The notes under the pieces are model-generated. The model searched no databases and was not told where the DNA came from. It saw only the letters and a list, made by a program, of their open reading frames with translations. From Patescibacteria group bacterium (GTDB lineage Bacteria > Patescibacteriota > Microgenomatia > JAMCYU01), in contig JAMCYU010000001.1 of NCBI GenBank assembly GCA_023473585.1, forward strand, positions 2,507 through 66,506: a stretch of DNA of 64,000 nucleotides, written 5' to 3'. A program made the translations under genes and the position numbers. Shown here in pieces: positions 1,837-36,603 of the stretch; the first letter of the stretch is position 1, and each line of letters begins with the position of its first letter.

Positions 1837-1843
1837 TCTTCTT

Positions 1844-4637: not shown

Positions 4638-4644
4638 AGAAAAA

Positions 4645-6937: not shown

Positions 6938-6954
6938 GAGTTAACTAGAAAAAA

Positions 6955-8202: not shown

Positions 8203-8204
8203 AA

Positions 8205-13661: not shown

Positions 13662-13719
13662 GAAGCTAATTATAGCATATTAAAGGTTATGGAAAAAACT
13701 TAAGATTTATCCTTCCTCA

Positions 13720-22185: not shown

Positions 22186-22191
22186 ATTAAA

Positions 22192-24356: not shown

Positions 24357-24381
24357 CCACTTATTTTAACAGATTTGCAGC

Positions 24382-24840
24382 TCAAAGAAAAAATTCGACC
24401 TTATCCCCAATCTCAATCTTAAGCTTTTTTATCAAACCCTGATTAACCTCTAAAACTTTATCAAAATTTTGTTTCGCCCTAATAATTTGCGGCTTTTCGT
24501 CTTTTTTCGGAAAAGACACGTTTTCGGAAAGATCAACCACGATGCCCTCATTAAGAAAGATAAAATCAAGATTAAATCGCATTTTGTCCATCCAAAAAGG
24601 ATAATTACCGCTTGTTCCAAAAACAAACAACATTCCGGAGTCTTTGGCTAAACTCTCTCTGTCGGACAGTCCATGAGCAATCGCCAGGGGGTCTTTGGCC
24701 ACTTCAACATAAATCGTTTCCTTCTTGATCATCACTTTTTGCCGCTTATCTTCGGAGATTATTAAAAATTTAAACCCGGCAACAAAGCCCAAAACAAGAG
24801 TCAGGAGAAAAAGAAAAATCAACCCTGAATTTTTCATCAT
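24382..24840 (-). CDS. DUF192-family protein (COG1430-like) with N-terminal TM anchor
   Basis: …GMLFVFGTSGNYPFWMDKMRFNLDFIFLNEGIVVDL… resembles the conserved DUF192 core. 152 aa. Confidence 0.55.
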   Translation of the reverse strand: MMKNSGLIFLFLLTLVLGFVAGFKFLIISEDKRQKVMIKKETIYVEVAKDPLAIAHGLSDRESLAKDSGMLFVFGTSGNYPFWMDKMRFNLDFIFLNEGIVVDLSENVSFPKKDEKPQIIRAKQNFDKVLEVNQGLIKKLKIEIGDKVEFFL

Positions 24841-25433
24841 AAATTACTTACCTCCTGATAGATTTTAAACGTTTCTCTGGCCAACTTATCCCAGGAATAT
24901 TTTTTAACCTGCTCTTGCCCTTTTCTGATCATTTCTTCTTTGTTCTGTTGTTTTAAAACATTAGAACAAACCATCTTAAGCTTTTCTGCTATATCCTTGG
25001 GGTTCTGGGGATCAAAGTATAAAGCTCCTTCACCGTAGATCTCTCGAAAAACCGGAATATCCGAGCAAACAACTAAGCAGCTGCTGGCCATCGCTTCTAA
25101 GCCTGGCAAACCAAAACCCTCCATTAAGGAAGGAAAAACTAGGGCCAAAGCCTTTTGGTAAAGACTCGTTAATTCTTCCCTTTTGGCCGGCCCATAGAAA
25201 CTCACCGACTCAGTTAATCCCATGACTTCAACTTTCTTCTTGAGCTGTTTGTAAAAATGGTCTTCTCCGCCGACAAGAATTAACTTAATACCCAATACTG
25301 AATACTTAATACTGGCGATTGCTTCAAGCAGGCGTTCAAGGTTTTTATGGGGATAGGCATTGCCTACATATAAAAAGTATTTGGTATTTAGTATTTGGTA
25401 TTTAGTATTTGGTATTATATTAGGCTGCTTCAT
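24837..25433 (-). CDS. GT4 glycosyltransferase, C-terminal Rossmann domain only (3' half of a split GT4 gene)
   Basis: Begins MKQPNIIPNTKYQILNTKYFLYVGNAYPHKN (heptamer-repeat-encoded linker, then GT4 C-domain start). Contains …EGFGLPGLEAMASSCLVVCSDIPVFREIYGEGALYF…. Overlaps the N-domain ORF by 14 nt in another frame. Confidence 0.6.
   Translation of the reverse strand: MKQPNIIPNTKYQILNTKYFLYVGNAYPHKNLERLLEAIASIKYSVLGIKLILVGGEDHFYKQLKKKVEVMGLTESVSFYGPAKREELTSLYQKALALVFPSLMEGFGLPGLEAMASSCLVVCSDIPVFREIYGEGALYFDPQNPKDIAEKLKMVCSNVLKQQNKEEMIRKGQEQVKKYSWDKLARETFKIYQEVSNL
25281..25315 (-). repeat. Five tandem heptanucleotides (TAACTTA ATACCCA ATACTGA ATACTTA ATACTGG) within the GT4 C-domain ORF
   Basis: Direct reading. 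Encodes …ASIKYSVLGIK…. Confidence 0.75.
25377..25418 (-). repeat. Six tandem heptanucleotides (GTATTTG GTATTTA)x3, i.e. a 14-nt unit x3, at the junction of the split GT4 gene
   Basis: Direct reading: gtatttggtatttagtatttggtatttagtatttggtattat. Encodes PNTKYQILNTKYF. Confidence 0.85.
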
Positions 25434-25944
25434 AAGTTACCGCTATTTTTTCCGAATTGAGATGATAGTGCTTTATAATTTCCCGTTTGGTTGTTTCCGA
25501 AACCGTGATGACCTTAACGGCCCGGTGAAGAGCAACCCACATGACCAGTTTATAACCCAACCTTTTAAGTTTATAGAGAAAAAGGGGCAAAGTCGAGGCT
25601 TTGCCGGTCTCAAAATGGTCCAGGATTAAATCATGAATGGTGACAATAAACTTTCCCGGATAAAAGATAGGCACGGAGAAATAGGGAAAATGGACAAGGT
25701 CCAATTTTTCCCGCCATAAAAGATAGGGCATGACTATTTGTTCTTTCAAGCTATGCCAGCGGATATCAATAATCATTTTTTCAAAGTTAGGTCCGGGAAG
25801 TTTAAATTCCTCAAACTCATTCTTGGCAAAGAACAAAAGATAATGGTTTTTTTGGTCAATTTTTGCCAAATTGCTTGTCAGTTCCTGAACGTAACGACCG
25901 ACACCCGTTTGTTTCCATAATCTGGCATCAATTCCGATTTTCAT
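25420..25944 (-). CDS. GT4 glycosyltransferase, N-terminal Rossmann domain only (5' half of a split GT4 gene)
   Basis: MKIGIDARLWKQTGVGRYVQELTSNLAK… is a typical GT4 N-domain. Ends …EKIAVTYEAA at a position equivalent to the inter-domain linker of the intact paralog 33825-34979. Confidence 0.6.
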   Translation of the reverse strand: MKIGIDARLWKQTGVGRYVQELTSNLAKIDQKNHYLLFFAKNEFEEFKLPGPNFEKMIIDIRWHSLKEQIVMPYLLWREKLDLVHFPYFSVPIFYPGKFIVTIHDLILDHFETGKASTLPLFLYKLKRLGYKLVMWVALHRAVKVITVSETTKREIIKHYHLNSEKIAVTYEAA

Positions 25945-25956
25945 ACTAAAAACTTT

Positions 25957-26820
25957 CTAATTGTTACTTAGTGCTTTTTTTATTTCAATTCCCACCATCA
26001 TTAAAAAGTTCAGTAAAGACGGATACTTTTTTAGATAGTGTTTCCGGTAAAAGATTTTCATCGTTTCGTAAAAATATTCTTTTGTTTCTCTTCTTATCTT
26101 ATTCTCTTCACTGGCTCGGCCGCTTTGTTTTTTAAAATGGGTAATTTTTGCACCTGGATAATAAAAAATTTTAAAGCCGGCCTGTTTTATTCGGTATGAC
26201 CAATCAAGATCTTCGCCGTACATAAAATAATCCTCGTCCAGAAACCCGACTTTCTCAATAACTTCTCTTCTTAAGAAATAAAAGGCGCCGGAAGGTGAAT
26301 CAATTTCGTGAGGTTTATCAATCGGTAAGTAACCCAAATGATATTGGCCGAAAAGCCTGGATTTCGGAAAAAGTTTTTCCAGGCCCAAAAAATACGATAA
26401 AGAAGCCCACGGCGTGGGAAAACCCCGATGACACGCCGGATCAAGAGAGCCGTCGGGAAATTCCACCCGACAGGTGGCGACACCAATTTGAGGGTTTTCC
26501 TCCATAAATTTTAGCATCTTATGGATCGTATCTTTTTCCAAAAGCGTATCCGAATTTAAAAGTAAAATAAATTTTCCTGTTGCTTTTTTAAGACCAAGAT
26601 TATTGCCTTTGGCAAACCCCAAATTCTTTCCATTTTCGATAATCTGTATTTTCTCGTCTTCAACCTTAATGCTTTCTACTGAATTATCCGTTGAGCCGTT
26701 ATCCACCACGATAATCTCAACACTCTCTAGTCCTTTAACCGCTGCCTCAACCGATTGTAAGCAGCGAATGACTAAATCTTTGGTATTATAGCTAAGAACG
26801 ATAATTGAGAGTTTGATCAT
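25957..26820 (-). CDS. Glycosyltransferase family 2 (GT-A)
   Basis: …LSIIVLSYNTKDLVIRCLQSV…EIIVVDNGSTDNS…GNNLGLKKATGKFILLLNSDT… and DxD region …YGEDLDWSYR…. Start taken at MIKLS (ATG 26820), 2 nt before the upstream gene's stop. The longest ORF extends to 26883. Confidence 0.75.
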   Translation of the reverse strand: MIKLSIIVLSYNTKDLVIRCLQSVEAAVKGLESVEIIVVDNGSTDNSVESIKVEDEKIQIIENGKNLGFAKGNNLGLKKATGKFILLLNSDTLLEKDTIHKMLKFMEENPQIGVATCRVEFPDGSLDPACHRGFPTPWASLSYFLGLEKLFPKSRLFGQYHLGYLPIDKPHEIDSPSGAFYFLRREVIEKVGFLDEDYFMYGEDLDWSYRIKQAGFKIFYYPGAKITHFKKQSGRASEENKIRRETKEYFYETMKIFYRKHYLKKYPSLLNFLMMVGIEIKKALSNN

Positions 26821-26821
26821 T

Positions 26822-27982
26822 TCAACTTTTGAGAAAGTTCTCCAGCTTTTCGGCGATAATTTGCCAGTCATAATTTTCTTCAACCAGTTCTCTGGCTCGT
26901 TTAATCATCGCTTCGTATGTCTCCGGATGATTCATAAGATCAATCGTTACCTTGGCTAACTCATCGGTACTGTCACGAACAATCAGAGAATCCTGATCAA
27001 AGCCTTCCTGGCCAACGGGCGTCGTCACCACCGGAACACCACTGGCCATGGCCTCCAAAATTTTGTATTTTGTTCCGCCGCCGCTTTTTAAAGGCGCCAA
27101 AAGAACCGCGGCTTTTTGGTAGGCTTCTTTAATATCTTTGACCGTTTCGTCAATAAGAATATCTTTTTTTTCTAAACGTTTAAGCCAGGCCGGCGGATTT
27201 TGACCGACAATGAGAAGTTGTGCCTCGGGGACTCTTTTTTTAATTTGCGGAAAGATTTCCTTAACCAGCCACTCAACGGCCTGTAAATTTTGAAACCAGG
27301 AGAAATTGCCGATAAATAAAACATTTTTAATCCCCAAAGCTCGCTCCCTTAACATTTTAAAGCTTCCGGTGTCAACGCCGTTAGGAATGATTTCAACGTC
27401 TCCTCTTTCTGTTTTTTCTTCGATAATTTTTTTATCGGCTGCCGACATGACAGCGATTTTGGTCGCTTTTCGCCACATCCGTTTTTCCCAAATTTCCATT
27501 TTAAAAAGATCTATTTGCATCGGCAACCAAAGGATGATTTTTTGCCAAAAGGGCAAATTATCTCTGTATCGCTTATAGGCTAAATATTCGATATTTTGTT
27601 CGCTTAAGAATATCGGCAAAGAAAGTTCGGGAATTTTATCCATTAAATAAAAACACTCGCAATAAATGGCCTCTATTCCAAGAAAATAATCGGCTCGTAA
27701 TTCTTTTGTCTTATAAAGATTCATGATTAAGGGTTTTGTGGAAAATAAGGTTTTGCCCAAAGCTTGAAGCGTCCAGGGTTTATATTGTCTTTTAATTAAA
27801 TGAATCTCGTCGCAAATTTTTGTCAACTCGTCAAGATATTGTCTTTCGTTATCCTGACGGATATAAGAAACCAGCGTCACCCGATGATTTCGCTTTAGGG
27901 CTTGTAGAAGATGGTAGGCTCTTATCTGACCGCCGCTTAAGAGCGGCCATGGCAAAGTCGGCGTCAAAAAAAGAATTCTCAT
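26822..27982 (-). CDS. Glycosyltransferase family 4 (GT-B)
   Basis: MRILFLTPTLPWPLLSGGQIRAYHLLQAL… N-domain. C-domain …GGGTKYKILEAMASGVPVVTTPVGQEGF…. 386 aa. Confidence 0.75.
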   Translation of the reverse strand: MRILFLTPTLPWPLLSGGQIRAYHLLQALKRNHRVTLVSYIRQDNERQYLDELTKICDEIHLIKRQYKPWTLQALGKTLFSTKPLIMNLYKTKELRADYFLGIEAIYCECFYLMDKIPELSLPIFLSEQNIEYLAYKRYRDNLPFWQKIILWLPMQIDLFKMEIWEKRMWRKATKIAVMSAADKKIIEEKTERGDVEIIPNGVDTGSFKMLRERALGIKNVLFIGNFSWFQNLQAVEWLVKEIFPQIKKRVPEAQLLIVGQNPPAWLKRLEKKDILIDETVKDIKEAYQKAAVLLAPLKSGGGTKYKILEAMASGVPVVTTPVGQEGFDQDSLIVRDSTDELAKVTIDLMNHPETYEAMIKRARELVEENYDWQIIAEKLENFLKS

Positions 27983-29376
27983 CTAAGTTTTACAATCACA
28001 AAACGATCGTTGGTGACAATGGGTGTCCATTTTTTGAGGACGTATTGAGTTTCCAAATCGGGGACATTGGTATTGACATAATAATCTGCTCCCAAAGTTA
28101 TTTTTTTCTCGATCTCAAAACCCACTGGCCAACCTTGACGATTTGTCTGGTATAAAAAAGCCGTATCGCCCCCGTAGGGAGCAATAACTTTAGCGTCTTT
28201 GGGTATTAATTTATCCGTTGCCAAACCGGCCTCAACAATCGCCGGATTATTAATCCAGTAATAACTTCTTATCTCCCGCCAGGAGAGCAGGGTTCCTAAA
28301 AGAAAACAGAAAAGCACCATCGTCAAACTGGATAAACGCTGGAAATTGTTATTTTTGCTCAATAAAACCGCCATCCCCTGGCCCAAAAAAATGGCCAGGA
28401 TCGGTAGCCATAAAATTTGGTAGTAATCATGCTGAACATTGCCGCGGGCAAAAACAAGCGCGTAGAGAACGGTTCCTGCCAAGAGGAACAGATTCGTTTT
28501 TTGAGAACCGGTTGATTTAGAGATTAAACCTATAACTAAAAAGACAATCAGCCAATAACCAGAAATAAGCTTGGCCAGTCTTTCTCCCAATAACCAATAA
28601 AAATAAGCGCCGGAAAAACGGATATTCCCGTCATTTAAAAGCCAGAAGTTAGCCGGAATCCCTTCCGGGTATTGCCCAATCCAATAACGCCAGAACAAAA
28701 ACGGCAAAACCGCGAAAAGGGAAAAAAGAAAAAGTTTCAAAAAATAACGGCCGCCGAAGACAGGGTTTCTCAACCAAAAATAAACTAACGGCAAAAGAAG
28801 AAAACCGGCAGTAGGTTTCGTCAGAAGAGCTAAACCCGATAAAATAGCGGCGTTAAACCAAGATTTATCAAAAACCCAAAGAGCCCCGATAGCAAAAAAG
28901 ACCGCCAGCATTTCCGGCAGGATAGCCCGGCTGTAAAAAATGCCGTATGGTAAAAAACAAAAAACAATAAGGGTACAAAAAGCAACCAAGTCTCCGCCTC
29001 TTTTTCTGGCAAGACTAAAAAGAAAAAACGCCGTCCCTAATGAGGCCAGGATACTGATTAAACGCAGTGCTATTTCGATCGTCATCCCCGGTATCATTTT
29101 CGTCAACTTAAATAATCCCACCCCTAATGTTTGGTAAACAGGAAATTCCACCATCCTGTACCCCAAAAGATTATCTTTCCCCGATTGGATATTGGAGAGG
29201 TCATCATAACGAGGCCGAAGAGGGTCAAAACCAAATTTTAAAAAATTTCTCGCCACCGCCGCCGTATCGGCCTGACGCCAAGAATGCCAATCCGCAACCG
29301 GACCATTAAGCCGGTAGAGTCTAAAAACAAAAGCTAATAAAATAATGACGAGAAATAAAATCCGTGTTTTTATCAT
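27979..29376 (-). CDS. Polytopic GT-C-type membrane glycosyltransferase (ArnT/PMT-like, COG1807-type)
   Basis: 465 aa with ~11 predicted TM helices. N-terminal motif …FRLYRLNGPVADWHSWRQADTAAVARNF… resembles the first-loop signature of bacterial PMT/ArnT-family lipid-linked-sugar transferases. Confidence 0.55.
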   Translation of the reverse strand: MIKTRILFLVIILLAFVFRLYRLNGPVADWHSWRQADTAAVARNFLKFGFDPLRPRYDDLSNIQSGKDNLLGYRMVEFPVYQTLGVGLFKLTKMIPGMTIEIALRLISILASLGTAFFLFSLARKRGGDLVAFCTLIVFCFLPYGIFYSRAILPEMLAVFFAIGALWVFDKSWFNAAILSGLALLTKPTAGFLLLPLVYFWLRNPVFGGRYFLKLFLFSLFAVLPFLFWRYWIGQYPEGIPANFWLLNDGNIRFSGAYFYWLLGERLAKLISGYWLIVFLVIGLISKSTGSQKTNLFLLAGTVLYALVFARGNVQHDYYQILWLPILAIFLGQGMAVLLSKNNNFQRLSSLTMVLFCFLLGTLLSWREIRSYYWINNPAIVEAGLATDKLIPKDAKVIAPYGGDTAFLYQTNRQGWPVGFEIEKKITLGADYYVNTNVPDLETQYVLKKWTPIVTNDRFVIVKLR

Positions 29377-32366
29377 TTAATCGGTACTTGTTTGACCTCA
29401 CGCACGACTTCCTGAAGTTCACCTTTTTCAAAAACAAAAACGTGAGAATTCGGAGTCTTGTCCAGAAGATCAAGGGCTTGTTCAAGGGAAGGAACCGTTT
29501 GAATTTTTAGCGTCTCGTCCCGGAAAGAATGCCAAAGAGCATCATCCAAACCAACCGGGAAAACCCAGGCTCTTCCTTCTCTGATGGGGACGTCAACAAA
29601 ATAAAAAGTTTTTCCGTAGGTTAAGGTTATATATTTTAATCTTAAACCCGAAAGAAGTTTAAGGCTCATTTCCCCGGCTTTATACCAGTCTTTATTGGTC
29701 TTGTTCAATTCGCTAAGATAATAATTCGTCAGCAATCCCATTATCAAGATTAAACTCAAGAGCGCATAAACGATTTTCTTTTTCCTAAAAAACTCATAAA
29801 TTTTACAAAGGGTCAGACCCAAAATGATGGCCACGCCTGATGAACTTAAATAAGAATAACGTTCGGTAATATTACCCAAACCAAGAAAGGGTAATAAGGA
29901 GAGTATTGCCAAACCAAAACTAAAAATTGCCAGCGAGGAAAATCTTACTTTTCTTCTTCCCCACCAAAAGATCATAACCGCCAAAACCATCGAAAGACCG
30001 GAAAACAGCAAGAAGATATTCTTATATTGTCTGCCAAAATTGCGCCAGGAATCATAAAACGAAAGAAAGTTCGGACCGGTAAGAATTAATCCAAGATAGC
30101 CGAGTAAATTGCCTAAGCTGTTCGCAAAAAATAAATTCAGATTATAATTATAATCGCCAGAGAGACCGTGCGCCCCGGCCCACGATCTTAAAAGCAGATA
30201 AGCTGGAAGCAAGAGTAAAAAGGCAATCTGTGATTTAATTCTTTTTTGCCCTAAGGTCAGTTCATACCAAAGAATGATTAGCGGTCCGACAATCGCCCCT
30301 TCGTAACTCAAAATGGCCAATAAAAGCAAAAGAAAAGAGAAAAGATAATATCTTTTCTTATTGTTTTGCCTGAATAAACTGAAGAAATACAAGCCGCCAA
30401 TAATTAAAAGCGCGGCAAAGTCATTGCCTATGGTTGAAATCCAAAAAAGAGACTCGCCATGAGAAGGCATGATTAAAAAGATAAGGGCTGCCAAAGCAGC
30501 CAATAATTTATTCCGACTTGATTTAAGAGTAAAAAGATATAAGAAGGCGCTCGTTCCGAAATGAAAAATAAGACTTAGCAAATGATAGCCGAAAGATTTA
30601 AGCCAAAAAACAGTAAACGAAATTAAATAAATAATCTTCGGCACCGGCCGATAGAAAAATCCAGCGGCGTTTGTAAAAAACGAGGGAATATCCTTAAAAG
30701 TGCTTTGGGCTGCCCACCTAAGCCAGGTGAAATCATCACCGACAAAATAATTATTTAAACTGTGGGCAAAAAAACTAAAGGTTAAAATAAAGAGAATAAT
30801 TATGGAAAAAAGAGGCGAAAAGAGAATTTTTTTAATTTCGCTCATTAAGGGAATTTTTTCTTCGTAATAGAGTTTTAAACCGCCAAGGGTAATGCCCAAA
30901 ATAAGCCAAATCGAAAAAGCCACTTTGGAAGCCTCAAAGATATCAATAAGAACGGCGTTGACAGCCAATCCCGTAAAACCGGCCGCAACGCCGATCGCCA
31001 AACTCCGAAGAAATGGCTGGGTGATTTTTTTTAAGGCGTATTTGATAAAAATCGCCAAGTTCGCGATCAAAAAAAGAAAAGATAATAAGCCAAAAATCCC
31101 GGTTTCTCCCAACATCCTTAGATAATCATTATCGGTGGCCAGATTAATTGAGGAATAACCGGTACCCAAGAGAGGGTTTCTTTTAAAAGCCGCAATCGCC
31201 CTGGGCCACTCTCCCTGGATACGAGTCGTTAGGGAAATATCATAAACTAAGGCTTTTTGAATTAAGAAACTTCCCGAAATAGACGCAACCTCACCGGATG
31301 TGGTTGCCAGGGGTTGTTTCTTGATAATGGAAACGGTCATCGTCTTGGGAGCCGTTGTGACGGTCGTCGGTAACCCGATATAGCCGCTACCGGCAGGTAA
31401 ACTTTCCTCCGCCGGACTTTTTTCTGCTTCCGTGATAATCTTTCCGTCTTCAATTTTGTCAACCGTAGCAATTGGTTTACCTGTCTGCAAATCAAAAACC
31501 ACCTGTTTAACTCTAAAGGTTTTTAAATAACGCTCGCCCACCCCACTGGTTATATTCATAAAAAGAATGCTGACCAAAATAACCGGAATAATTAGGAGTT
31601 TTCTTTTCTGCCACCAAAGCATGATGGTCATGGTTATTAAATAAACCATAAAAGAAACTCTTGAGGCGGTAGACAAAAGAAGAAATAAACACAAAAGAAC
31701 GATGCCTAAAAGACCAATTTTGGCTAATTTTTTCTGGACCCCGAAAATGAGCGCGCTCAAAATAGCAATGACAAAAACCAAATAGGCCGCCAGATCGTAA
31801 TGTCCGGCAAAAGTGGAAGTAATTCGGGCGCCTTCAGGAAGATAAAGAGGAATTCCCTTGGCAAATTCTTCGTTCATCGTTAAAAAAGCCGGAAAACCAA
31901 GCAATTTTTGTCCAAAACCGTAGAATAAAACTCCCAAAACGGTAAAGATCAAAATAAAGAGGTAATGATAAACATCTTTAAGACTTTTAACGGTGGAAAA
32001 GGCAATCAGAAAAATGACCATATACTCAATCCGGCGCACCCAGTGAAGGATAGCGACATTGGGGAAAAAATTTGACAATCTGGAAGATAAAAAAACCAGG
32101 GAAAAGACAAGGGAAATTCCCCCAATTAACCAGTAAAGAAAAATCGGCAAAGTTAAGGGTGTCTTTAGGCTCAACCTCCCCTTTAAGAGGTTAAGAACCC
32201 AAATAAAAACTAAGGCTGTCAAGAAAATATCTTCGAGTCTGATGTAAACCCAGGTATGAGGAACGTCTATTAAGGGTAATTTGGGCCATAAAGGGATAAA
32301 AGCCAATAAAAAACCCACGCCAATTTTTAAAAGATGATTGTCAAGCCAATTTATAAGCTTTCGCAT
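29373..32366 (-). CDS. Fusion membrane protein: N-terminal O-antigen ligase/polymerase-like (Wzy_C) domain plus C-terminal PMT/ArnT-like GT-C domain
   Basis: 997 aa with more than 20 TM helices. Residues ~1-450 contain Wzy_C-like signatures …RITSTFAGHYDLAAYLVF… and …TDNDYLRMLGETGIFGLLSFLFL… (compare the WaaL/Wzy H-N-x-Y-L…E-T-G motif). Residues ~500-997 contain …FFAHSLNNYFVGDDFTWLRW… and a further polytopic region, as in PMT_2-type GT-C enzymes. Confidence 0.55.
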   Translation of the reverse strand: MRKLINWLDNHLLKIGVGFLLAFIPLWPKLPLIDVPHTWVYIRLEDIFLTALVFIWVLNLLKGRLSLKTPLTLPIFLYWLIGGISLVFSLVFLSSRLSNFFPNVAILHWVRRIEYMVIFLIAFSTVKSLKDVYHYLFILIFTVLGVLFYGFGQKLLGFPAFLTMNEEFAKGIPLYLPEGARITSTFAGHYDLAAYLVFVIAILSALIFGVQKKLAKIGLLGIVLLCLFLLLSTASRVSFMVYLITMTIMLWWQKRKLLIIPVILVSILFMNITSGVGERYLKTFRVKQVVFDLQTGKPIATVDKIEDGKIITEAEKSPAEESLPAGSGYIGLPTTVTTAPKTMTVSIIKKQPLATTSGEVASISGSFLIQKALVYDISLTTRIQGEWPRAIAAFKRNPLLGTGYSSINLATDNDYLRMLGETGIFGLLSFLFLIANLAIFIKYALKKITQPFLRSLAIGVAAGFTGLAVNAVLIDIFEASKVAFSIWLILGITLGGLKLYYEEKIPLMSEIKKILFSPLFSIIILFILTFSFFAHSLNNYFVGDDFTWLRWAAQSTFKDIPSFFTNAAGFFYRPVPKIIYLISFTVFWLKSFGYHLLSLIFHFGTSAFLYLFTLKSSRNKLLAALAALIFLIMPSHGESLFWISTIGNDFAALLIIGGLYFFSLFRQNNKKRYYLFSFLLLLLAILSYEGAIVGPLIILWYELTLGQKRIKSQIAFLLLLPAYLLLRSWAGAHGLSGDYNYNLNLFFANSLGNLLGYLGLILTGPNFLSFYDSWRNFGRQYKNIFLLFSGLSMVLAVMIFWWGRRKVRFSSLAIFSFGLAILSLLPFLGLGNITERYSYLSSSGVAIILGLTLCKIYEFFRKKKIVYALLSLILIMGLLTNYYLSELNKTNKDWYKAGEMSLKLLSGLRLKYITLTYGKTFYFVDVPIREGRAWVFPVGLDDALWHSFRDETLKIQTVPSLEQALDLLDKTPNSHVFVFEKGELQEVVREVKQVPIK

Positions 32367-33234
32367 AAATTCTTTTTGCTTCCGGGTCTTTAGCGATTAT
32401 ACCAAAAAGAACATATCTTACCAAGGCTCCTGATTTTAAAAGAAACCTTAAAATCGGCATCTGTAAGGGTGATTTGTGTTTTTTAAAAAAATACAAAATC
32501 TCTTGAAATTCTTCAGCGATACCCGCTAAATCGTCCCTGGCGGAAGAACCTTTAAGATGAACGACCCCAGCTTGGGGGTTAAAAACGATCTTTATACCAA
32601 ATTTACTCGCCCTGGCACACCAATCAACCTCCTCCACGTACATAAACATCTTTTCGTCGAAATAACCAACTTTTTCGATCATTTCCCTGGTGGTCAAGAG
32701 AAAGGCGCCTGTCACCCAGCCTAAATCCTGTTGGCGAGTATAGAACTTTAGATTATCCATATGATATGGTTTAAGAAACTGATTTAAAAAATCGAGATTA
32801 TCCAAAAAACTCATCCATAAAAAAACATTAAATAAATTCGGCAGGAATCCTCCTGATGGTTGCAGCGAACCGTCAAGGTTCCTGATCTGACAACCAACAA
32901 CCCCGACTTCCTGATGATTTTGTAAAAAAGAGAGTTCCGTCTCGATCGCTTTTTCAGAAACTAACGTGTCGCTATTTAAAATAAGAAGATAAGTCCCTTT
33001 TGCCTCTCTTAGTCCCTGATTGACAGCTTTGGCAAAACCCAGATTTTTTAGATTTTTTAAAATTTTAACCTGCCCATATCTTTTCTCAACCTCTGCCGCT
33101 GTTTTATCTTCCGAGGCATTGTCAACGACAATGATCTCAAAATCTCCGTTTGTCGTTTGATAAATTGAGGCAAGACAATTAAGAAGAAGGTCGCAGGTAT
33201 TATAACTGGGAATAATAATCGAAAGATCAGCCAT
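32341..33234 (-). CDS. Glycosyltransferase family 2 (GT-A)
   Basis: …LSIIIPSYNTCDLLLNCLASI…EIIVVDNASEDKT…NLGFAKAVNQGLREAKGTYLLILNSDT…. Start taken at MADLS (ATG 33234), directly after the upstream stop. The longest ORF extends to 33318. Confidence 0.75.
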   Translation of the reverse strand: MADLSIIIPSYNTCDLLLNCLASIYQTTNGDFEIIVVDNASEDKTAAEVEKRYGQVKILKNLKNLGFAKAVNQGLREAKGTYLLILNSDTLVSEKAIETELSFLQNHQEVGVVGCQIRNLDGSLQPSGGFLPNLFNVFLWMSFLDNLDFLNQFLKPYHMDNLKFYTRQQDLGWVTGAFLLTTREMIEKVGYFDEKMFMYVEEVDWCARASKFGIKIVFNPQAGVVHLKGSSARDDLAGIAEEFQEILYFFKKHKSPLQMPILRFLLKSGALVRYVLFGIIAKDPEAKRIYAKAYKLA

Positions 33235-33235
33235 A

Positions 33236-33832
33236 TTATTGGAAGAGCCTGGCTCGTCCCAGACGGTATTGGGGATCTTTAAGCTGTCTTTCGGCAATCG
33301 GCTTGGCCGGAACACCACCTACCACCGTAAATTCAGGCACGTCTTTGGTTACCACCGCGCCGGCGGCCAAAATCGCTCCCCTGCCCACTTTAACCCCGGG
33401 CTGAATCATCACTCTCGGGCCGATAAAAACATAGTCAGCGATGGTCACGGGTGCACTGATCGCTTCAAAATCAGGACTATGGATGTTATGTTTGGCGTTA
33501 TAAATAAGAACCTGAGAGGCGATATCGACATGATCGCCGATAGAAAGAGGCGCCCGGCCGTCCAAAAAGACATGATCGCCGATGATCGTATCTTCGCCGA
33601 TGGTCACGCCTTTGGGATCAAAAAAATTCGCCCACATATGAATAATTGAGCCTTTGCCGATTTTCACGCCGGCAAGTTTATAAACCCAACGCCTGACAAA
33701 GTGCAACGGCACATGTCCTATCAATCGCAAAATCATAATTTCAAAATCAAGCCAGTAGTTATAAAGCCGGTTGACAATTTTCAGCAAAGCCTGGCTGAAA
33801 CTTAGTTCTAGACCATTTTTATCTTTAAACAT
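33236..33832 (-). CDS. Hexapeptide-repeat (left-handed beta-helix) sugar O-acetyltransferase (WbbJ/Maa-like)
   Basis: …IGDHVFLDGRAPLSIGDHVDIASQVLIYN… and …YVFIGPRVMIQPGVKVGRGAILAAGAVVTKDVPEFTVVGGVPAKPI…. 198 aa. Confidence 0.75.
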   Translation of the reverse strand: MFKDKNGLELSFSQALLKIVNRLYNYWLDFEIMILRLIGHVPLHFVRRWVYKLAGVKIGKGSIIHMWANFFDPKGVTIGEDTIIGDHVFLDGRAPLSIGDHVDIASQVLIYNAKHNIHSPDFEAISAPVTIADYVFIGPRVMIQPGVKVGRGAILAAGAVVTKDVPEFTVVGGVPAKPIAERQLKDPQYRLGRARLFQ

Positions 33833-34979
33833 GTTTTTCTCCTACTTGTTTTAAAACATTTAACGTCTCTTTGGCGCATTTTTCCCAGCTGAATTTACTT
33901 GCCTGGATTTTCCCTTTTTCAATCAGCACCATTCTTTCATCACTCTCTATCGTTAAGACCTTTTCCAGGCCTTGGATAATGTCTTGGCTATCGTTAGGAT
34001 CAACCAGAATCCCCGCCTCGCCAACCACTTCCGGAAGACTGGAAGTATTTGAGGTAACAACCGGACAACCATAGTTTAAAGCTTCCAAAACCGGCAAACC
34101 GAATCCCTCATAAAGACTGACCAAAACAAAACATTTGGCCTTTTGATAAAGAGCTGGCAGATCCTCATCCGGCACATAATCTAAAAATTTAACCTTCCTT
34201 TCGACGCCGAATTTGCGGGGCGCTTCATAAATCTCCCGATAAAGCCAGCCGGGCTTCCCGACGATAACCAGGGTATAGGGATTGGGATTTAAAGAAGAAA
34301 AGGCCTCAATTAATTTAACAAAGTTTTTCCTCGGCTGCAGCGTCCCCACCGATAAAATGTAGTCATTTTCTATACCGTATTTCTTTTTTATCTCTTCCAT
34401 ACTTAATACTTGATACTTAATACTTGTTACTTGTGTCAGTCCCGGATACGTCACCACTACTTTATCTTCTGCTATTTGATAATACTTAATTATATCACGC
34501 TTCGAAGCTTGCGAGATAGTTAAGACCTTTCTGGCTTTTTTAACCGAATAGGCGGTCCAGTTTTTAAGCTGATAAAGATCGCTTTTTTTAAACATTTCCG
34601 GATATTTCAAAAACGAAAGGTCCATGACGGAAACGACTCTGGGAAAGGGACAAAATCGAGGCGCGTAATGAGTGGGTGTAAAAAAAACGTCAATCTTTTC
34701 TTTTTCACTTAACTTATTTTTCAAAAGCGCCAAGGGCAAGCCTAATTGCGTCCATAACTTTTTGGGGCCGACGATTTTATATTTCCACCGCTCGGTCTCG
34801 TTAGGCAAATCTATCGATGGCTTGTTTTTTAAATATACTTGATAATTAATACTTGATTCTTGATACCTGTCGAATTGTTTTAACAATTCAAAGGCATACC
34901 TGCCTACTCCGACCCTGGTTTTGAAATTAGCCTCATTACCATCAACACCAATTAAAAGAGTTTTTGTCTTGTCTTGCAT
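33825..34979 (-). CDS. Glycosyltransferase family 4 (GT-B), intact paralog of the split/truncated GT4 genes
   Basis: N-domain …LLIGVDGNEANFKTRVGVGRYAFELL…. C-domain …YILSVGTLQPRKN…SLYEGFGLPVLEALNYGCPVVTSNTSSLPEVVGEAGILVDP…. Two in-frame heptanucleotide tracts encode …SSINYQVYLKN… and …TQVTSIKYQVLSM…. Confidence 0.75.
   Translation of the reverse strand: MQDKTKTLLIGVDGNEANFKTRVGVGRYAFELLKQFDRYQESSINYQVYLKNKPSIDLPNETERWKYKIVGPKKLWTQLGLPLALLKNKLSEKEKIDVFFTPTHYAPRFCPFPRVVSVMDLSFLKYPEMFKKSDLYQLKNWTAYSVKKARKVLTISQASKRDIIKYYQIAEDKVVVTYPGLTQVTSIKYQVLSMEEIKKKYGIENDYILSVGTLQPRKNFVKLIEAFSSLNPNPYTLVIVGKPGWLYREIYEAPRKFGVERKVKFLDYVPDEDLPALYQKAKCFVLVSLYEGFGLPVLEALNYGCPVVTSNTSSLPEVVGEAGILVDPNDSQDIIQGLEKVLTIESDERMVLIEKGKIQASKFSWEKCAKETLNVLKQVGEKHV
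34399..34433 (-). repeat. Five tandem heptanucleotides (ATACTTA ATACTTG ATACTTA ATACTTG TTACTTG) in the GT4 inter-domain linker
   Basis: Direct reading. Encodes TQVTSIKYQVLS. Confidence 0.85.
34835..34869 (-). repeat. Five tandem heptanucleotides (ATACTTG ATAATTA ATACTTG ATTCTTG ATACCTG) in the GT4 N-domain
   Basis: Direct reading. Encodes DRYQESSINYQVY. Confidence 0.8.
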
Positions 34980-35056
34980 AAATAAATTCTTTTATGAGAT
35001 TTACTATATTGCTTTAAAGTAATATAGTTTTTAGCCTTATTTTCTACGTTCTTCTC

Positions 35057-35608
35057 TTAAATTCTCCTCCAGTCTTCCACTTTCCCCGGATAAGTTACTT
35101 TTAGTCTTTTCTCTTCAATCCCTAAAATTTGCATGGCATCCCGTTTTGTGCTTTCGGAAATAGAAAAAATAACCGCTGACTCTTTTTTAACCCATTTAAG
35201 CTTCCTTTTTTGAGTCGCCACGATTTTTTTAGCGGTTTCCTCTGGATATTTGTAAACGATAAGATCATACAAAATGGTGGCTTTTTTAGCCTTTAATACC
35301 GGCGGTTCGGTCCAGTCAGAAGTAATAAAGATGTCAACGTCTCCGATAAACCATTCTATGGGGAAAAGATGCAGTCTGTTCCAGAGAAAAGCCAATAGAG
35401 CAAGTGGCAGCCAGAATGTTTTAAGCCGAACATTATTATGCTTGATACTTGATACTGGAAACTTAATACTTTTCCTCAAACTTGAAAAAAACAGAACATA
35501 CTCATTTTTTTTGTCTATCTTTAACAAGTTCTCCACCAAATTCCCTAAATAAGAAGCGACTCCGGTTTTCTCATACGCCATCTGACTAATATCAATGCCT
35601 ATTCTCAT
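35057..35608 (-). CDS. GT4 N-terminal-domain-only ORF (truncated paralog; possible gene remnant)
   Basis: 183 aa. MRIGIDISQMAYEKTGVASYLGNLVENLL… is homologous to the N-domains of 25420-25944 and 33825-34979. Ends …RLKVTYPGKVEDWRRI at the inter-domain linker, and only 77 nt separate it from the next gene. Contains the heptamer tract 35438-35472. Confidence 0.5.
   Translation of the reverse strand: MRIGIDISQMAYEKTGVASYLGNLVENLLKIDKKNEYVLFFSSLRKSIKFPVSSIKHNNVRLKTFWLPLALLAFLWNRLHLFPIEWFIGDVDIFITSDWTEPPVLKAKKATILYDLIVYKYPEETAKKIVATQKRKLKWVKKESAVIFSISESTKRDAMQILGIEEKRLKVTYPGKVEDWRRI
35438..35472 (-). repeat. Five tandem heptanucleotides (ATGCTTG ATACTTG ATACTGG AAACTTA ATACTTT)
   Basis: Direct reading. 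Encodes …KSIKFPVSSIKHN…. Confidence 0.75.
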
Positions 35609-36603
35609 CTTCTTTTATCGGGTCCATAACCTTTGGGGTGAGTCGAGTGCCATTTCCAGGCTGTTTCCACAATCGTTTGCAAGTCAGAATACTTAGGCTC
35701 CCAACCTAATTCTTTTTTGATTTTGGCAGCATCGGCGATCAGTTCCTTGGCATCACCCGGACGCCGACTGCCAAACTTAAGAGGAAAATCTACGCCGCTG
35801 ACTTTTTTAACGATATTAACCACCTCAATATTGGAAAAGCCTATACCTGGCCCGACATTATAAATATGGCTTGACGAATTTTTCATCAAAGAATCAAGGG
35901 CTAGAAGATGAGCCTCACAAAGATCAATAACATGAATATAATCTCTGATGCAGGTTCCGTCTTTCGTTTCATAGTCATTCCCGTAAATCGTAAACTCTCT
36001 GTTTTCCAGGGCCGCCTTAACGGCCAGCGGAATAAGATGCGTCTCTTCCTGATGGTCTTCGCCAAATTGTCCGTCCAGACTCGCTCCGGCGGCGTTAAAG
36101 TAACGTAGAGAAACAGAACGCAGGTTAAACAATTGATCATACCAGGCAAGGATTTTTTCCACCATTAACTTTGACTCGCCATAAGGATTCGTCGGTTCTT
36201 GAGGATCATTCTCGCTAATGGGGATTCTCGTCGGATTGCCATAAACTCCGGCAGAAGAGGAAAAAATTAACCTTAAGACGCCGGATTTAACCATCGCTTC
36301 GATGAGATTTAAGGCTCCGTAAGTATTTGTGTAAAAATATTTATAGGGGTTTTGCATTGATTCCTTCATGGAAATAACCCCGGCAAAGTGCATAACGGCA
36401 TCAAATCTATTTTCAGAAAATAATTTAAACAAACAGTTTTGATCATTAACGTCACCAGTAATGAGTGGAATAGTTGATGGGAGAGTTTTTCGATGTCCTT
36501 CTTTAAGATTGTCTAAAACAACAACTTTGTGATTCTTTTCAAATAATTGCCTTACCATTTGACTACCAATATAACCGGCTCCTCCTGTGACTAAAATTTT
36601 CAT
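35605..36603 (-). CDS. galE: UDP-glucose 4-epimerase
   Basis: MKILVTGGAGYIGSQMVRQL…, …SSSAGVYGNP…YGESKLMVEKIL… (YxxxK), …YNVGPGIGFS…. 332 aa. Confidence 0.8.
   Translation of the reverse strand: MKILVTGGAGYIGSQMVRQLFEKNHKVVVLDNLKEGHRKTLPSTIPLITGDVNDQNCLFKLFSENRFDAVMHFAGVISMKESMQNPYKYFYTNTYGALNLIEAMVKSGVLRLIFSSSAGVYGNPTRIPISENDPQEPTNPYGESKLMVEKILAWYDQLFNLRSVSLRYFNAAGASLDGQFGEDHQEETHLIPLAVKAALENREFTIYGNDYETKDGTCIRDYIHVIDLCEAHLLALDSLMKNSSSHIYNVGPGIGFSNIEVVNIVKKVSGVDFPLKFGSRRPGDAKELIADAAKIKKELGWEPKYSDLQTIVETAWKWHSTHPKGYGPDKRR

What the first reader, a model, noticed from the sequence alone, without database searches (positions are those of the whole stretch)
29373..32366. 997-aa fusion of an O-antigen-ligase/polymerase (Wzy_C)-like domain to a PMT/ArnT-like GT-C domain
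The N-terminal half has WaaL/Wzy-type signatures (…RITSTFAGHYDLAAYL…; …DNDYLRMLGETGIFGLL…). The C-terminal half is a second polytopic module with a GDDF first-loop motif, like PMT_2-type lipid-linked-sugar transferases.

Ligase/polymerase and GT-C transferase activities are normally separate proteins. A single-chain fusion, followed directly by another ArnT/PMT-like GT-C (27979-29376), suggests a coupled polymerise-and-transfer machine for a surface glycan or glycoprotein.
Basis: inference. Interest (0 to 1): 0.6.

Follow-up and report, generated by a model that had tools for sequence, protein, structure and literature searches.

The report
Fusion of two membrane glycosyltransferases
A 997-residue membrane protein of an uncultured Patescibacteria bacterium joins a Wzy/WaaL-like module to an ArnT/PMT-like sugar-transferase module; the fusion is real, is conserved in hundreds of related genomes inside a fixed sugar-polymer operon, and probably assembles a cell-surface glycan that has not been identified.

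Summary
ORF 29373-32366 (-) encodes 997 aa, and the quoted motifs are there.

- **N-half (aa 1-505).** It is a 12-TM Wzy_C/WaaL-type (GT-C_B) module: Pfam Wzy_C E 3.8e-7, and the whole model matches WaaL 7TPG.
- **C-half (aa 506-997).** It is a 13-TM GT-C_A module. Its own model matches only ArnT, STT3, AglB, PglB, ALG9, DPY19 and PMT. An invariant DD sits at the start of the first outer loop.
- **Not an artefact.** At least 440 species-level genomes carry it, and all 80 inspected have one ORF. The named ones are Microgenomates-type Patescibacteria.
- **Context.** It sits in a collinear operon of about 12 genes and is translationally coupled to a second GT-C_A (PMT_2-like, 465 aa).
- **Split forms.** Natural split versions exist, with the N-half and C-half as adjacent genes.
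- **New detail.** The histidine that O-antigen ligases use to activate the acceptor is an invariant Asp (D412) here, as in SEDS and inverting Wzy polymerases. The N-half therefore looks like a polymerase rather than a ligase.

Function is inferred: a two-centre extracytoplasmic glycan-assembly enzyme. I rate it a new variant of known kinds, of moderate interest.

The parts
29373..32366 (-). Whole gene: 997-aa two-module polytopic membrane protein (25 predicted TM helices, N-terminus inside)
   Evidence: ORF list and translation. AF2 model pLDDT 82.3, pTM 0.81. Topology by the positive-inside rule: 18 K/R per 63 aa in inner loops against 5 per 87 aa in outer loops.
30852..32366 (-). N-half, aa 1-505: 12-TM Wzy_C/WaaL-type (GT-C_B) module
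   Evidence: Pfam Wzy_C E 3.8e-7. Weak NCBIfam hits to TIGR03097 and TIGR04370. Foldseek hit to WaaL 7tpg_B, prob 1.0, TMt 0.59, which appears only when the N-half is part of the model.
31803..31898 (-). Outer loop aa 157-188 with conserved MNEEFAKG...R181...GHYD
   Evidence: Invariant columns. hhalign pairs R181 with the invariant R161 of enterobacterial WaaL, at low probability.
31659..31661 (-). R236 (TASR), counterpart of the first diphosphate-binding Arg of WaaL (Ec R215 / Cm R191)
   Evidence: The same register comes out of three alignments. Present in 81 of 82 sequences. The role of this Arg is taken from PMC10920833.
31242..31517 (-). Beta-rich, length-variable insertion (aa 284-375) in the large outer loop between TM9 and TM10
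   Evidence: DSSP strands 284-375 with low pLDDT at 314-362. This stretch accounts for most of the extra alignment columns.
31221..31223 (-). R382 (SLTTR), candidate second diphosphate-binding Arg
   Evidence: Present in 81 of 82 sequences. The resemblance to Ec WaaL SLGAR288 and Cm TSVGVR265 is at motif level only.
31089..31133 (-). D412-N-D-Y-L-R-M-L-G-E-T-G-I-F-G: the family's version of the WaaL 'H-N-x-x-x...G-x-x-G' motif, with Asp in place of the ligase His
   Evidence: The HMM alignment places Cm WaaL H313 on D412. hhalign places Ec N339 on N413. D412 is present in 81 of 82 sequences, and no His in the N-half is conserved (H189 is in only 70 of 82).
30924..30947 (-). Outer loop IDIFEASK (aa 474-481) with invariant D475 and K481
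   Evidence: hhalign pairs D475 with the invariant D389 of WaaL, at low probability.
30816..30872 (-). Cytoplasmic linker (aa 499-517) between the two modules; it is absent where the genes are split
   Evidence: Topology. In the split form in L083, the N-protein ends and the C-protein starts at this point.
29376..30851 (-). C-half, aa 506-997: 13-TM GT-C_A module plus a small outer C-terminal domain
   Evidence: Separate AF2 model with pLDDT 88.6 and pTM 0.89. The top 26 Foldseek PDB hits are all GT-C_A enzymes, led by ArnT 5f15 at E 3.9e-5 and TMq 0.49. No Pfam family covers it.
30597..30752 (-). First outer loop of the C-half (aa 539-590), with the putative catalytic D544-D545 (nt 30732-30737) and FFYRP (aa 570-574)
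   Evidence: D544, D545, R573 and P574 are present in 81-82 of 82 sequences. The loop follows TM1 on the outer side.
30141..30176 (-). Outer loop GAHGLSGDYNYN (aa 731-742) with conserved D738
29376..29696 (-). C-terminal outer alpha/beta domain (aa 891-997), with conserved RAWVFPVGL..ALW
   Evidence: DSSP. Invariant P927, W934 and G939. Truncated in the split form.
27979..29376 (-). Translationally coupled second GT-C_A (PMT_2-like, 465 aa, about 11 TM)
   Evidence: PMT_2 E 3.9e-5, below the cutoff. Orthologues carry PF13231 or PF02366 on record. Adjacent to the fusion in 74 of 80 loci, with its start within about 20 nt of the fusion's stop in most. ATGA overlap here.
21547..36603 (-). Surrounding glycan operon. 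In transcription order: epimerase, GT4 N-domain, GT4, WcaF-like acetyltransferase, GT2, FUSION, PMT_2-like, GT4 (stp1-like), GT2, GT4 (frameshifted here), DUF192, GT4, sugar-1-P nucleotidyltransferase, WbaP-type phosphoglycosyl transferase
   Evidence: Pfam and NCBIfam. The same gene order appears in nearly all 80 related loci at 35-59% protein identity.

Best explanation
The gene encodes a two-centre, outward-facing glycan-assembly enzyme of a monoderm Patescibacteria (Microgenomates-type) bacterium.

The operon's WbaP-type phosphoglycosyl transferase and its GT4/GT2 enzymes build an oligosaccharide on polyprenyl diphosphate inside the cell. After flipping, by a flippase not found in this window, the N-half takes this lipid-PP-linked unit as donor. 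The N-half is a 12-TM GT-C_B module with two conserved Arg for the diphosphate and an Asp (D412) where O-antigen ligases have their acceptor-activating His. It most likely polymerises the unit, as inverting Wzy-type polymerases and SEDS proteins do.

The C-half is a 13-TM GT-C_A module with a DD motif at the start of its first outer loop. It carries out a second lipid-linked glycosyl transfer on the same product, with the coupled 465-aa PMT_2-like enzyme next door. That transfer is either side-chain addition from a polyprenyl-phosphate sugar or hand-over of the chain to its final acceptor. Fusing the modules fixes them side by side in the membrane at 1:1.

Shown here: the architecture, folds, topology, conservation, synteny, and the existence of split forms. 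Inferred: the donors, the acceptor, the order of the steps, and the polymerase assignment.
For: - **Folds.** The whole model hits GT-C_A enzymes and WaaL. The C-half alone hits only GT-C_A enzymes.
- **Family signal.** Pfam Wzy_C on the N-half.
- **Topology.** All conserved loops of both halves are on the outer face.
- **Conserved residues.** R236, R382, D412, D475, D544, D545, E638 and D738 are each present in at least 80 of 82 sequences.
- **Register against WaaL.** R215/R191 falls on R236 and H338/H313 on D412.
- **Published rule.** O-antigen ligases have His at this position; SEDS and the inverting polymerases of the same clan have Asp or Glu (PMC10920833).
- **Model confidence.** pTM 0.81 for the two-module model suggests a defined packing of the halves.
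- **Operon.** It holds a phosphoglycosyl transferase, about eight GTs and an acetyltransferase, and its order is conserved in nearly all 80 loci.
- **Split forms.** N-half and C-half occur as adjacent separate genes in the same operon context. This shows two separable modules that stay together.
Against: - There is no biochemical evidence.
- Alignments to WaaL are individually insignificant (hhalign probability 0.25-4.7%), so D412 = His rests on a consistent register rather than on statistics.
- No Wzx/MOP flippase, Wzz-type chain-length regulator or LCP ligase was found in the 64-kb window.
- No clear GtrB-type polyprenyl-phosphate-sugar synthase lies in the conserved operon. Its two GT2s have no TM segment, so the C-half's donor is unidentified.
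- The acceptor is unknown.
Confidence: 0.55

Rival explanations
1. The N-half is a ligase or O-oligosaccharyltransferase (WaaL/PglL/WsaB-like). It transfers the finished lipid-PP-linked glycan en bloc to a protein (S-layer protein, pilin) or a lipid. The C-half and the 465-aa enzyme then add single sugars from polyprenyl-phosphate donors.
For: - Databases name the family 'O-antigen ligase family protein'.
- The fold match is to WaaL.
- There is a weak hit to TIGR03097, 'putative O-glycosylation ligase'.
- No Wzz-type or Wzx partner typical of Wzy pathways is in the window.
- With about eight GTs, the operon could build one long glycan rather than a repeat unit.
Against: - The acceptor-activating His of WaaL/PglL/PglS-type enzymes (PMC12800693; PMC10920833) is an invariant Asp here.
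- No His in the N-half is universally conserved: H189 is present in only 70 of 82 sequences.
Confidence: 0.22
2. The N-half polymerises and the C-half is the enzyme that transfers the finished chain to its final acceptor. This mirrors the proposed Lactococcus scheme, in which a polymerisation step is followed by a GT-C-fold enzyme (WpsJ) that attaches the polymer to rhamnan.
For: - Both modules are fused, or adjacent when split.
- No LCP-type ligase is in the window.
- There is a precedent model in lactococci (PMC10821137).
- No GtrB-like donor synthase is in the operon.
Against: - Among characterised GT-C_A families, only oligosaccharyltransferases (GT66) use oligosaccharide donors (Table 1 of PMC10920833).
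- The C-half has no WWDYG motif and only a 107-aa outer domain.
- WpsJ's activity is itself only proposed.
- This model overlaps the best explanation, which leaves the C-half's step open.
Confidence: 0.25
3. The C-half is a non-catalytic GT-C-like scaffold or substrate-binding module that only positions or regulates the N-half.
For: No Pfam family and no PDB sequence relative were found. No donor-synthesising enzyme was identified.
Against: - The acidic and basic residues expected of an active GT-C_A are conserved: D544, D545, R573, E638, R727 and D738 are each in at least 79 of 82 sequences.
- Stand-alone relatives exist with no N-half nearby (P0221).
- An extra stand-alone paralogue occurs in some operons.
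Confidence: 0.05
4. The long ORF is an artefact: two genes joined by a sequencing or assembly error.
For: Split forms with two adjacent genes exist. Another gene in this operon is frameshifted in this window.
Against: - A single ORF is found in 80 of 80 related loci from independent assemblies.
- About 120 full-length homologues are listed.
- A conserved linker helix joins the halves, and the two-module model is confident.
Confidence: 0.01

Closest known systems
O-antigen ligase WaaL (CAZy GT121, Pfam Wzy_C, PDB 7TPG) and the related O-oligosaccharyltransferases PglL/PglS
   Same: - 12-TM GT-C_B fold with a large outer loop between TM9 and TM10.
- A conserved Arg in the 'T-x-x-R' position (R236).
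- The N-x-x-L...G-x-x-G motif leading into the next TM helix.
- The active site faces outward.
   Different: - The His that activates the acceptor is Asp (D412).
- A beta-rich insertion of about 90 aa sits in the big loop.
- There is no lipid A-core in a monoderm host.
- It is fused to a second polytopic enzyme.
- Sequence similarity to 7TPG is not significant in a database search.
Inverting bacterial polysaccharide polymerases (Wzy; CAZy GT125-129) and SEDS peptidoglycan polymerases (GT119), clan GT-C1
   Same: They belong to the same structural class as WaaL, but with Asp or Glu at the position of the ligase His plus one or two conserved Arg (PMC10920833). That is the pattern seen here.
   Different: - Membership of a specific CAZy polymerase family was not tested.
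- No Wzx or Wzz partner is nearby.
- No known member is fused to a GT-C_A.
GT-C_A lipid-phosphate-sugar transferases: ArnT (GT83, 5F15/5EZM), PMT (GT39), STT3/PglB/AglB (GT66), DPY19, ALG9
   Same: The fold matches (TMq 0.4-0.54, probability 1.0). The acidic pair lies directly after TM1 in the first outer loop. There are about 13 TM helices and a C-terminal outer domain.
   Different: - It is not recognised by PMT_2 or any other Pfam model, and identity to these enzymes is 11-15%.
- It has no WWDYG motif and only a small outer domain, so it is not an oligosaccharyltransferase.
- The donor and acceptor are unknown.
WadA, the bimodular O-antigen ligase of Brucella and Mesorhizobium (GT121 + GT25)
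   Same: It is a Wzy_C-type module fused to a second glycosyltransferase that acts on the same glycan. The fusion is read as coupled action (PMC10920833).
   Different: WadA's partner is a soluble GT-A-type domain that uses nucleotide sugars in the cytoplasm. Here the partner is a second polytopic, outward-facing, lipid-linked-donor enzyme.
Lactococcal Wps system (WpsH/WpsI polymerisation, then the GT-C-fold WpsJ attaches the polymer) and GacI/J/K/L-type multi-component glycosylation
   Same: The logic is the same: polymerise a lipid-linked unit outside the cell, and have a GT-C-fold enzyme finish or decorate the wall polymer (PMC10821137).
   Different: Those are separate proteins that work from a monophosphate carrier started by a GacI-like GT2. 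Here the initiator is a WbaP-type phosphoglycosyl transferase, which gives a diphosphate carrier, and the two membrane enzymes are one chain.

Membership tests
O-antigen ligase / Wzy_C (Pfam PF04932; CAZy GT121) | Match to the Wzy_C profile above the curated cutoff | tested here: inconclusive
   This protein scores 30.4 bits against a cutoff of 31.7, E 3.8e-7. Five homologues scored 20-29 bits. PF04932 is on record for about half of the 120 listed homologues.
O-antigen ligase / Wzy_C (Pfam PF04932; CAZy GT121) | 12-TM GT-C_B fold like WaaL 7TPG, with a large outer loop before TM10 | tested here: met
   Foldseek hit to 7tpg_B: probability 1.0, TMt 0.59, E 1.2e-2. The hit disappears when only the C-half is searched. 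12 helices and positive-inside topology.
O-antigen ligase / Wzy_C (Pfam PF04932; CAZy GT121) | Two Arg that bind the diphosphate of the lipid carrier (Cm R191/R265; Ec R215/R288) | tested here: inconclusive
   R236 aligns with R191/R215 in three alignments and is present in 81 of 82 sequences. R382 is equally conserved, but its equivalence to R265/R288 is only a motif resemblance.
O-antigen ligase / Wzy_C (Pfam PF04932; CAZy GT121) | Conserved His that activates the acceptor (Cm H313 / Ec H338) | tested here: not met
   The aligned position is D412, present in 81 of 82 sequences. No His in the N-half is universally conserved. The alignments have low probability, so the register needs confirmation by superposition.
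Inverting polysaccharide polymerases / SEDS (CAZy clan GT-C1) | Asp or Glu at the position of the ligase His, plus one or two conserved Arg | tested here: met
   D412, R236 and R382 are conserved. The rule is taken from PMC10920833.
Inverting polysaccharide polymerases / SEDS (CAZy clan GT-C1) | Match to a CAZy GT125-129 family model | not testable with these tools
   No CAZy polymerase profiles are available. NCBIfam TIGR04370 'oligosaccharide repeat unit polymerase' scores only 17.1 bits against a cutoff of 40.
Inverting polysaccharide polymerases / SEDS (CAZy clan GT-C1) | Wzx flippase and Wzz-type co-polymerase encoded alongside | tested here: not met
   Pfam scans of the ORFs of the 64-kb window show no MOP/Wzx or Wzz family. 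Every ORF of 400 aa or more is otherwise accounted for.
GT-C_A lipid-linked-sugar transferases (ArnT/PMT/STT3 type) | GT-C_A fold | tested here: met
   C-half model (pLDDT 88.6). The top 26 PDB hits are all GT-C_A enzymes: ArnT E 3.9e-5, STT3, AglB, PglB, ALG9, DPY19, Pmt4, AftD.
GT-C_A lipid-linked-sugar transferases (ArnT/PMT/STT3 type) | Acidic catalytic residue(s) at the start of the first outer loop after TM1 | tested here: met
   D544-D545 lie six to seven residues after TM1 (aa 518-538) on the outer side and are present in 81 of 82 sequences.
Pfam PMT_2 (PF13231) | Match to the PMT_2 profile | tested here: not met
   None of 46 C-halves hit it. Two hit PTPS_related weakly and one hit DUF6056. 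One homologue, P0018, scores 27.5 bits, above the cutoff.
Oligosaccharyltransferases (GT66: PglB/AglB/STT3) | WWDYG motif in a large C-terminal outer domain | tested here: not met
   The sequence contains no WWD, and the outer domain is only about 107 aa.
Three-component (GtrA/GtrB/GtrC-type) extracytoplasmic glycosylation | A GtrB-type membrane-anchored GT2 that makes the polyprenyl-phosphate sugar, encoded with the GT-C | tested here: inconclusive
   The two GT2s of the conserved operon have no TM segment and give only generic family hits. GT2s with a C-terminal TM exist elsewhere in the window. A stand-alone C-half paralogue is preceded by its own GT2 in L087.

The most novel reading that the evidence does not exclude
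The fusion, together with the coupled second GT-C_A, is the complete outer-face machinery for a wall glycopolymer common to Microgenomates. One polypeptide polymerises a lipid-PP-linked unit through an Asp-type GT-C_B centre and passes the chain directly to its own GT-C_A centre, which attaches it to the wall acceptor. This would be a route that needs no Wzz-type or LCP-type partners, and it would be the first non-OST GT-C_A shown to transfer a polymer.
Probability: 0.15. Interest if true: 0.75.

Novelty: new variant of a known kind. Interest (0 to 1): 0.55.

Why it matters
- **Envelope of an uncultured group.** Almost nothing is known experimentally about the cell envelope of Microgenomates-type Patescibacteria, which are uncultured. 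A glycan operon kept collinear across at least 80 species-level genomes at only 35-59% protein identity, and lying about 6 kb from the peptidoglycan (dcw/mur) cluster in this window, points to a core surface polymer of the group.
- **Unreported architecture.** The centrepiece joins the two structural classes of lipid-linked-donor glycosyltransferases (GT-C_B and GT-C_A) in one chain. I found no report of this architecture in the searched literature. Databases label only the N-half, as a 'ligase', and that label is probably wrong.
- **Testable predictions.** The fused and split forms are a Rosetta-stone argument that the two activities act on one product. The C-half defines a GT-C_A family that current domain libraries miss. 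The mutants D412, R236 and D544/D545 give direct tests.

Tried and rejected
**Searches that found nothing useful**
- Sequence-profile searches of the PDB found no real relative, only chance DDB1 hits. I tried the full family, the C-half, the N-half alone and the conserved N-half core.
- Local HMMs of each half against all window ORFs found no paralogue. The 465-aa neighbour is not detectably related to the C-half at sequence level.
- NCBIfam on the operon's GTs and on the other GT2s and large membrane proteins gave only generic names.
- Literature searches found nothing describing this protein or operon. The terms covered Wzy_C/GT-C fusions and O-antigen ligase or glycosyltransferase in Patescibacteria/CPR.

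I rebuilt the alignment from database proteins as A3.

**Weak or misleading results**
- hhalign of the family against E. coli WaaL, single sequence or profile, gave probabilities of 0.1-4.7%. I used these only for register.
- P0121-type hits of about 530 aa looked like stand-alone C-halves. The one I checked, P0121, is cut by a contig end.
- H189 looked like a possible substitute catalytic His. I rejected it because it is present in only 70 of 82 sequences.

**Readings rejected**
- An oligosaccharyltransferase reading of the C-half: there is no WWDYG motif and the outer domain is small.
- DUF2079 (36826-38253) as a conserved part of the system: it is present in only 2 of 80 loci.

Full report
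**1. The observation**

The ORF list shows an ATG-started ORF of 997 aa at 29373-32366 on the minus strand. It is followed by a 465-aa ORF at 27979-29376. The stop of the long gene and the start of the next overlap in ATGA.

A search of 5.8 billion proteins returned an identical entry, P0001, named 'O-antigen ligase family protein [Patescibacteria group bacterium]'. It also returned about 120 listed homologues, nearly all of about 1000 aa, covering 99-100% of the query at 41-67% identity.

A scan of one genome per species found at least 440 genomes that encode a relative. The records with meaningful names are Gottesman-, Levy-, Shapiro-, Woese- and Roizmanbacteria, that is, Microgenomates-type Patescibacteria. 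In all 80 loci fetched, profiles of the N-half and the C-half hit the same ORF. The long frame is therefore real and old, not a read-through error.

**2. What the two halves are**

*Sequence searches.* Pfam gives only Wzy_C (PF04932) for the whole protein, at E 3.8e-7 and 30.4 bits against a cutoff of 31.7. NCBIfam gives weak hits to an 'O-glycosylation ligase' model and a 'repeat unit polymerase' model over aa 26-275.

The C-half has no family. Of 46 C-halves scanned, two hit PTPS_related weakly, one hit DUF6056 and none hit PMT_2. One homologue, P0018, passes PMT_2. Profile searches against PDB sequences found nothing.

*Fold.* An AlphaFold2 model built from 64 family members has pLDDT 82.3 and pTM 0.81. 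Foldseek against the PDB returned the following, all with probability 1.0:

| Target | Protein | Rank / score |
|---|---|---|
| 5f15 | ArnT | rank 1, E 7.4e-4 |
| 8agc_A and others | STT3 | ranks 2-6, 8, 9 |
| 9i5k_A | Pmt4 | rank 7 |
| 6gxc_A | PglB | rank 10 |
| 7tpg_B | WaaL | rank 13, TMt 0.59 |
| 7zli_A | DPY19 | rank 14 |

To see which half matched which, I modelled aa 505-997 alone (pLDDT 88.6, pTM 0.89). Its top 26 hits are all GT-C_A enzymes: ArnT at E 3.9e-5 and TMq 0.49, then STT3, AglB, PglB, ALG9, DPY19, Pmt4, AftD and GPI mannosyltransferase. WaaL is absent from that list. So the N-half is the WaaL-like (GT-C_B) module and the C-half is a GT-C_A module.

*Topology.* Using the model's helices and an N-terminus inside, short inner loops carry 18 K/R in 63 residues. 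Short outer loops carry 5 in 87. This gives 12 TM helices for the N-half and 13 for the C-half. Every conserved loop lies on the outer face:
- aa 157-188
- aa 273-423
- aa 474-479
- the DD loop, aa 539-590
- aa 731-742
- aa 829-834
- the C-terminal domain, aa 891-997

**3. Catalytic residues**

Across the query plus 81 long ORFs from the 80 loci, the following residues are each present in at least 79 of 82 sequences: R181, D191, R236, R279, R382, D412, R417, E421, D475, K481, D544, D545, R573, P574, E638, R727 and D738. H189 is present in only 70.

*C-half.* D544-D545 lie directly after the first TM helix of the C-half on the outer side. That is where GT-C_A enzymes carry their catalytic acid (established knowledge of ArnT, PMT and PglB).

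*N-half.* I fetched E. coli WaaL and mapped it onto the solved C. metallidurans WaaL. Ec R215, R288 and H338 correspond to Cm R191, R265 and H313. Alignments with the family then gave these registers:

| Alignment | WaaL residue | This family |
|---|---|---|
| Family HMM vs Ec WaaL | R215 | R236 |
| Family HMM vs Cm WaaL | R191 | R236 |
| Family HMM vs Cm WaaL | H313 | D412 |
| Profile-profile vs 29 enterobacterial WaaLs | R161 | R181 |
| Profile-profile vs 29 enterobacterial WaaLs | R215 | R236 |
| Profile-profile, conserved core | N339 | N413 |
| Profile-profile, conserved core | D389 | D475 |

The N339-N413 pairing implies H338 on D412. Ungapped, Cm HNDIVEAASTTGIPG reads against DNDYLRMLGETGIFG.

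These alignments are individually weak (hhalign probability 0.25-4.7%). They agree with each other, however. The published analysis of these families states that O-antigen ligases have two Arg that bind the diphosphate and a His that activates the acceptor. In SEDS proteins and the inverting Wzy-type polymerases of the same clan, an Asp or Glu aligns with that His (PMC10920833; the His and Arg roles are also in PMC12800693).

The N-half thus keeps the Arg residues but has the polymerase-type acid. This is why I read it as a polymerase-like enzyme rather than a ligase. That is an inference which a structural superposition should confirm.

**4. Context**

The gene sits in a minus-strand glycan operon. 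In transcription order it contains:
1. epimerase (35605-36603)
2. a GT4 N-domain ORF
3. GT4
4. WcaF-like acetyltransferase
5. GT2 (32341-33318)
6. the fusion
7. the PMT_2-like 465-aa protein
8. an stp1-like GT4
9. GT2
10. a GT4 that is frameshifted here
11. DUF192
12. GT4
13. a sugar-1-phosphate nucleotidyltransferase
14. a WbaP-type phosphoglycosyl transferase (21547-22185)
15. a DUF4012 protein

tblastn of these proteins against the 80 loci shows the same order in nearly all of them. Counts of loci with a hit covering more than 60% of the query:

| Gene | Loci (of 80) |
|---|---|
| PMT_2-like | 74 |
| upstream GT2 (32341-33318) | 73 |
| downstream GT2 (25957-26883) | 73 |
| acetyltransferase | 72 |
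| GT4 at 33825-34979 (upstream of the acetyltransferase) | 71 |

The PMT_2-like gene starts within about 20 nt of the fusion's stop in most loci.

The left end of the window is the dcw/mur cluster: FtsW, MurD, MraY, MurF, Ddl, MurA, MurB, MurC, MurE and a PBP. No Wzx/MOP flippase, Wzz or LCP family appears among the window's ORFs. The operon's two GT2s lack TM segments.

**5. Fused, split and stand-alone forms**

A profile of the C-half scored against 1.84 billion cluster representatives found this many hits:

| E-value threshold | Proteins |
|---|---|
| 1e-3 | 96,735 |
| 1e-10 | 57,709 |
| 1e-30 | 1,969 |

Besides fused proteins of about 1000 aa and contig-end fragments (P0121), the top list holds complete proteins of about 450-550 aa.

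- **Split form, with DNA.** P0163 (467 aa) lies on contig L083, in the order acetyltransferase, GT2, a 535-aa protein, a 12-nt gap, P0163, a PMT_2 protein, GT4. The 535-aa protein matches the N-half profile at E 1e-154 over positions 6-505. P0163 matches the C-half profile at E 2e-110.
- **Split form, no DNA.** A second contig from another project has the same layout, with proteins of 540 and 480 aa.
- **Extra paralogue.** In L087 an extra stand-alone C-half paralogue, preceded by its own GT2, follows another gene that bears a C-half.
- **Unrelated neighbourhood.** More distant stand-alone relatives, such as P0221, sit in unrelated neighbourhoods.
- **No Pfam coverage.** None of ten such proteins has a Pfam hit.

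The two modules are therefore separable enzymes that are kept adjacent or fused. That argues they act on one product.

**6. Mechanism proposed**

The phosphoglycosyl transferase and the soluble GTs assemble a polyprenyl-diphosphate-linked oligosaccharide. After flipping, the N-half uses it as donor. Arg236 and Arg382 would hold the diphosphate and Asp412 would activate the acceptor hydroxyl, most likely polymerising the unit.

The C-half, and the coupled 465-aa GT-C_A, perform further outer-face transfers from lipid-linked donors. These are either side-chain addition or hand-over to the final acceptor. The high pTM of the two-module model suggests fixed side-by-side packing.

What is shown here is the architecture, topology, conservation and genomic coupling. 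The chemistry, the donors and the acceptor are inferred. My confidence is 0.55.

The main rivals are:
- a ligase or O-oligosaccharyltransferase role for the N-half (0.22)
- the specific polymerise-then-attach version (0.25, overlapping the main model)
- a non-catalytic C-half (0.05)
- an artefact (0.01)

**7. Comparison with what is known**

The N-half works like a WaaL/Wzy/SEDS-class enzyme but fails the ligase's His test. The C-half has the GT-C_A fold and the acidic motif, but belongs to no current Pfam family and is not an oligosaccharyltransferase.

The nearest precedent for a fused Wzy_C-type enzyme is WadA (GT121 + GT25). Its partner is a soluble nucleotide-sugar GT. The nearest precedent for the logic is the lactococcal Wps pathway, where polymerisation proteins and a GT-C-fold attaching enzyme are separate.

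I found no description of this fusion or operon in the literature searched.

**8. Verdict**

The finding is real, and its architectural reading is correct. It is a new variant built from two known kinds of enzyme. It is widespread in one uncultured lineage and mislabelled in databases. Interest: 0.55.

Noticed in passing
window 24837-25944 (-): A GT4 gene is broken into two overlapping ORFs here: the N-domain at 25420-25944 and the C-domain at 24837-25433. The same gene is one ORF in 52 of 63 related loci. This is likely a frameshift, either a sequencing error or a pseudogene.
   Followed up: partly
window 727-15393 (-): A complete-looking dcw/mur peptidoglycan cluster (FtsW, MurD, MraY, MurF, Ddl, GlmU-like, MurA, MurB, MurC, MurE, PBP transpeptidase) lies about 6 kb from the end of the glycan operon.
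   Followed up: partly
window ~38000-64000: A second glycan island with lower GC (0.33-0.37, against 0.39-0.44 to the left). It contains a GT4, a B12-binding radical SAM enzyme, GT2s with a C-terminal TM segment, a DegT aminotransferase, a TPP enzyme and a methyltransferase. It also has three large polytopic proteins (686, 1125 and 691 aa). Each has about 11-13 TM helices, a big outer domain and a C-terminal TM helix. None has a Pfam family beyond a weak YfhO tail.
   Followed up: partly
window 28001-32000, 42001-44000, 46001-48000: Plus-strand AT skew peaks (+0.16 to +0.21) coincide with minus-strand genes for polytopic membrane proteins. This is presumably a codon-composition effect of T-rich Phe/Leu/Ile codons.
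   Followed up: no
window 35057-35608 (-): A 183-aa ORF consisting only of a GT4 N-terminal domain is conserved as a separate gene at the head of the operon in 58 of 80 related loci.
   Followed up: partly
window 24382-24840 (-): A DUF192 gene sits inside the otherwise conserved operon. Among the 80 related loci, only L013 has it.
   Followed up: partly
L001, L004, L007 and many other loci: Many species-representative records that carry the same collinear operon are titled 'uncultured Gammaproteobacteria' (TPA 'binchicken' assemblies), or Lysobacterales or Acidiferrales. The operon content and the 40-47% identity match Microgenomates, so these titles look like placeholder or wrong names.
   Followed up: no
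L087 1-3078 and L088: In one lineage an extra stand-alone C-half paralogue (481 aa), preceded by its own GT2, lies between a C-half-bearing gene and the PMT_2-like gene. This hints that GT2 and GT-C_A genes travel as pairs.
   Followed up: partly
protein family level: The C-half profile finds 57,709 cluster representatives at E<=1e-10. Yet none of 10 stand-alone relatives and none of 46 C-halves hit PMT_2, and nearly all hit no Pfam family at all. A large GT-C_A family may be missing from domain libraries. I did not examine the distant hits.
   Followed up: partly
window 19570-21501 (-): A 643-aa DUF4012 protein with one N-terminal TM helix and a large outer part follows the phosphoglycosyl transferase. 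No function is known for it. It could be a chain-length or export factor.
   Followed up: no
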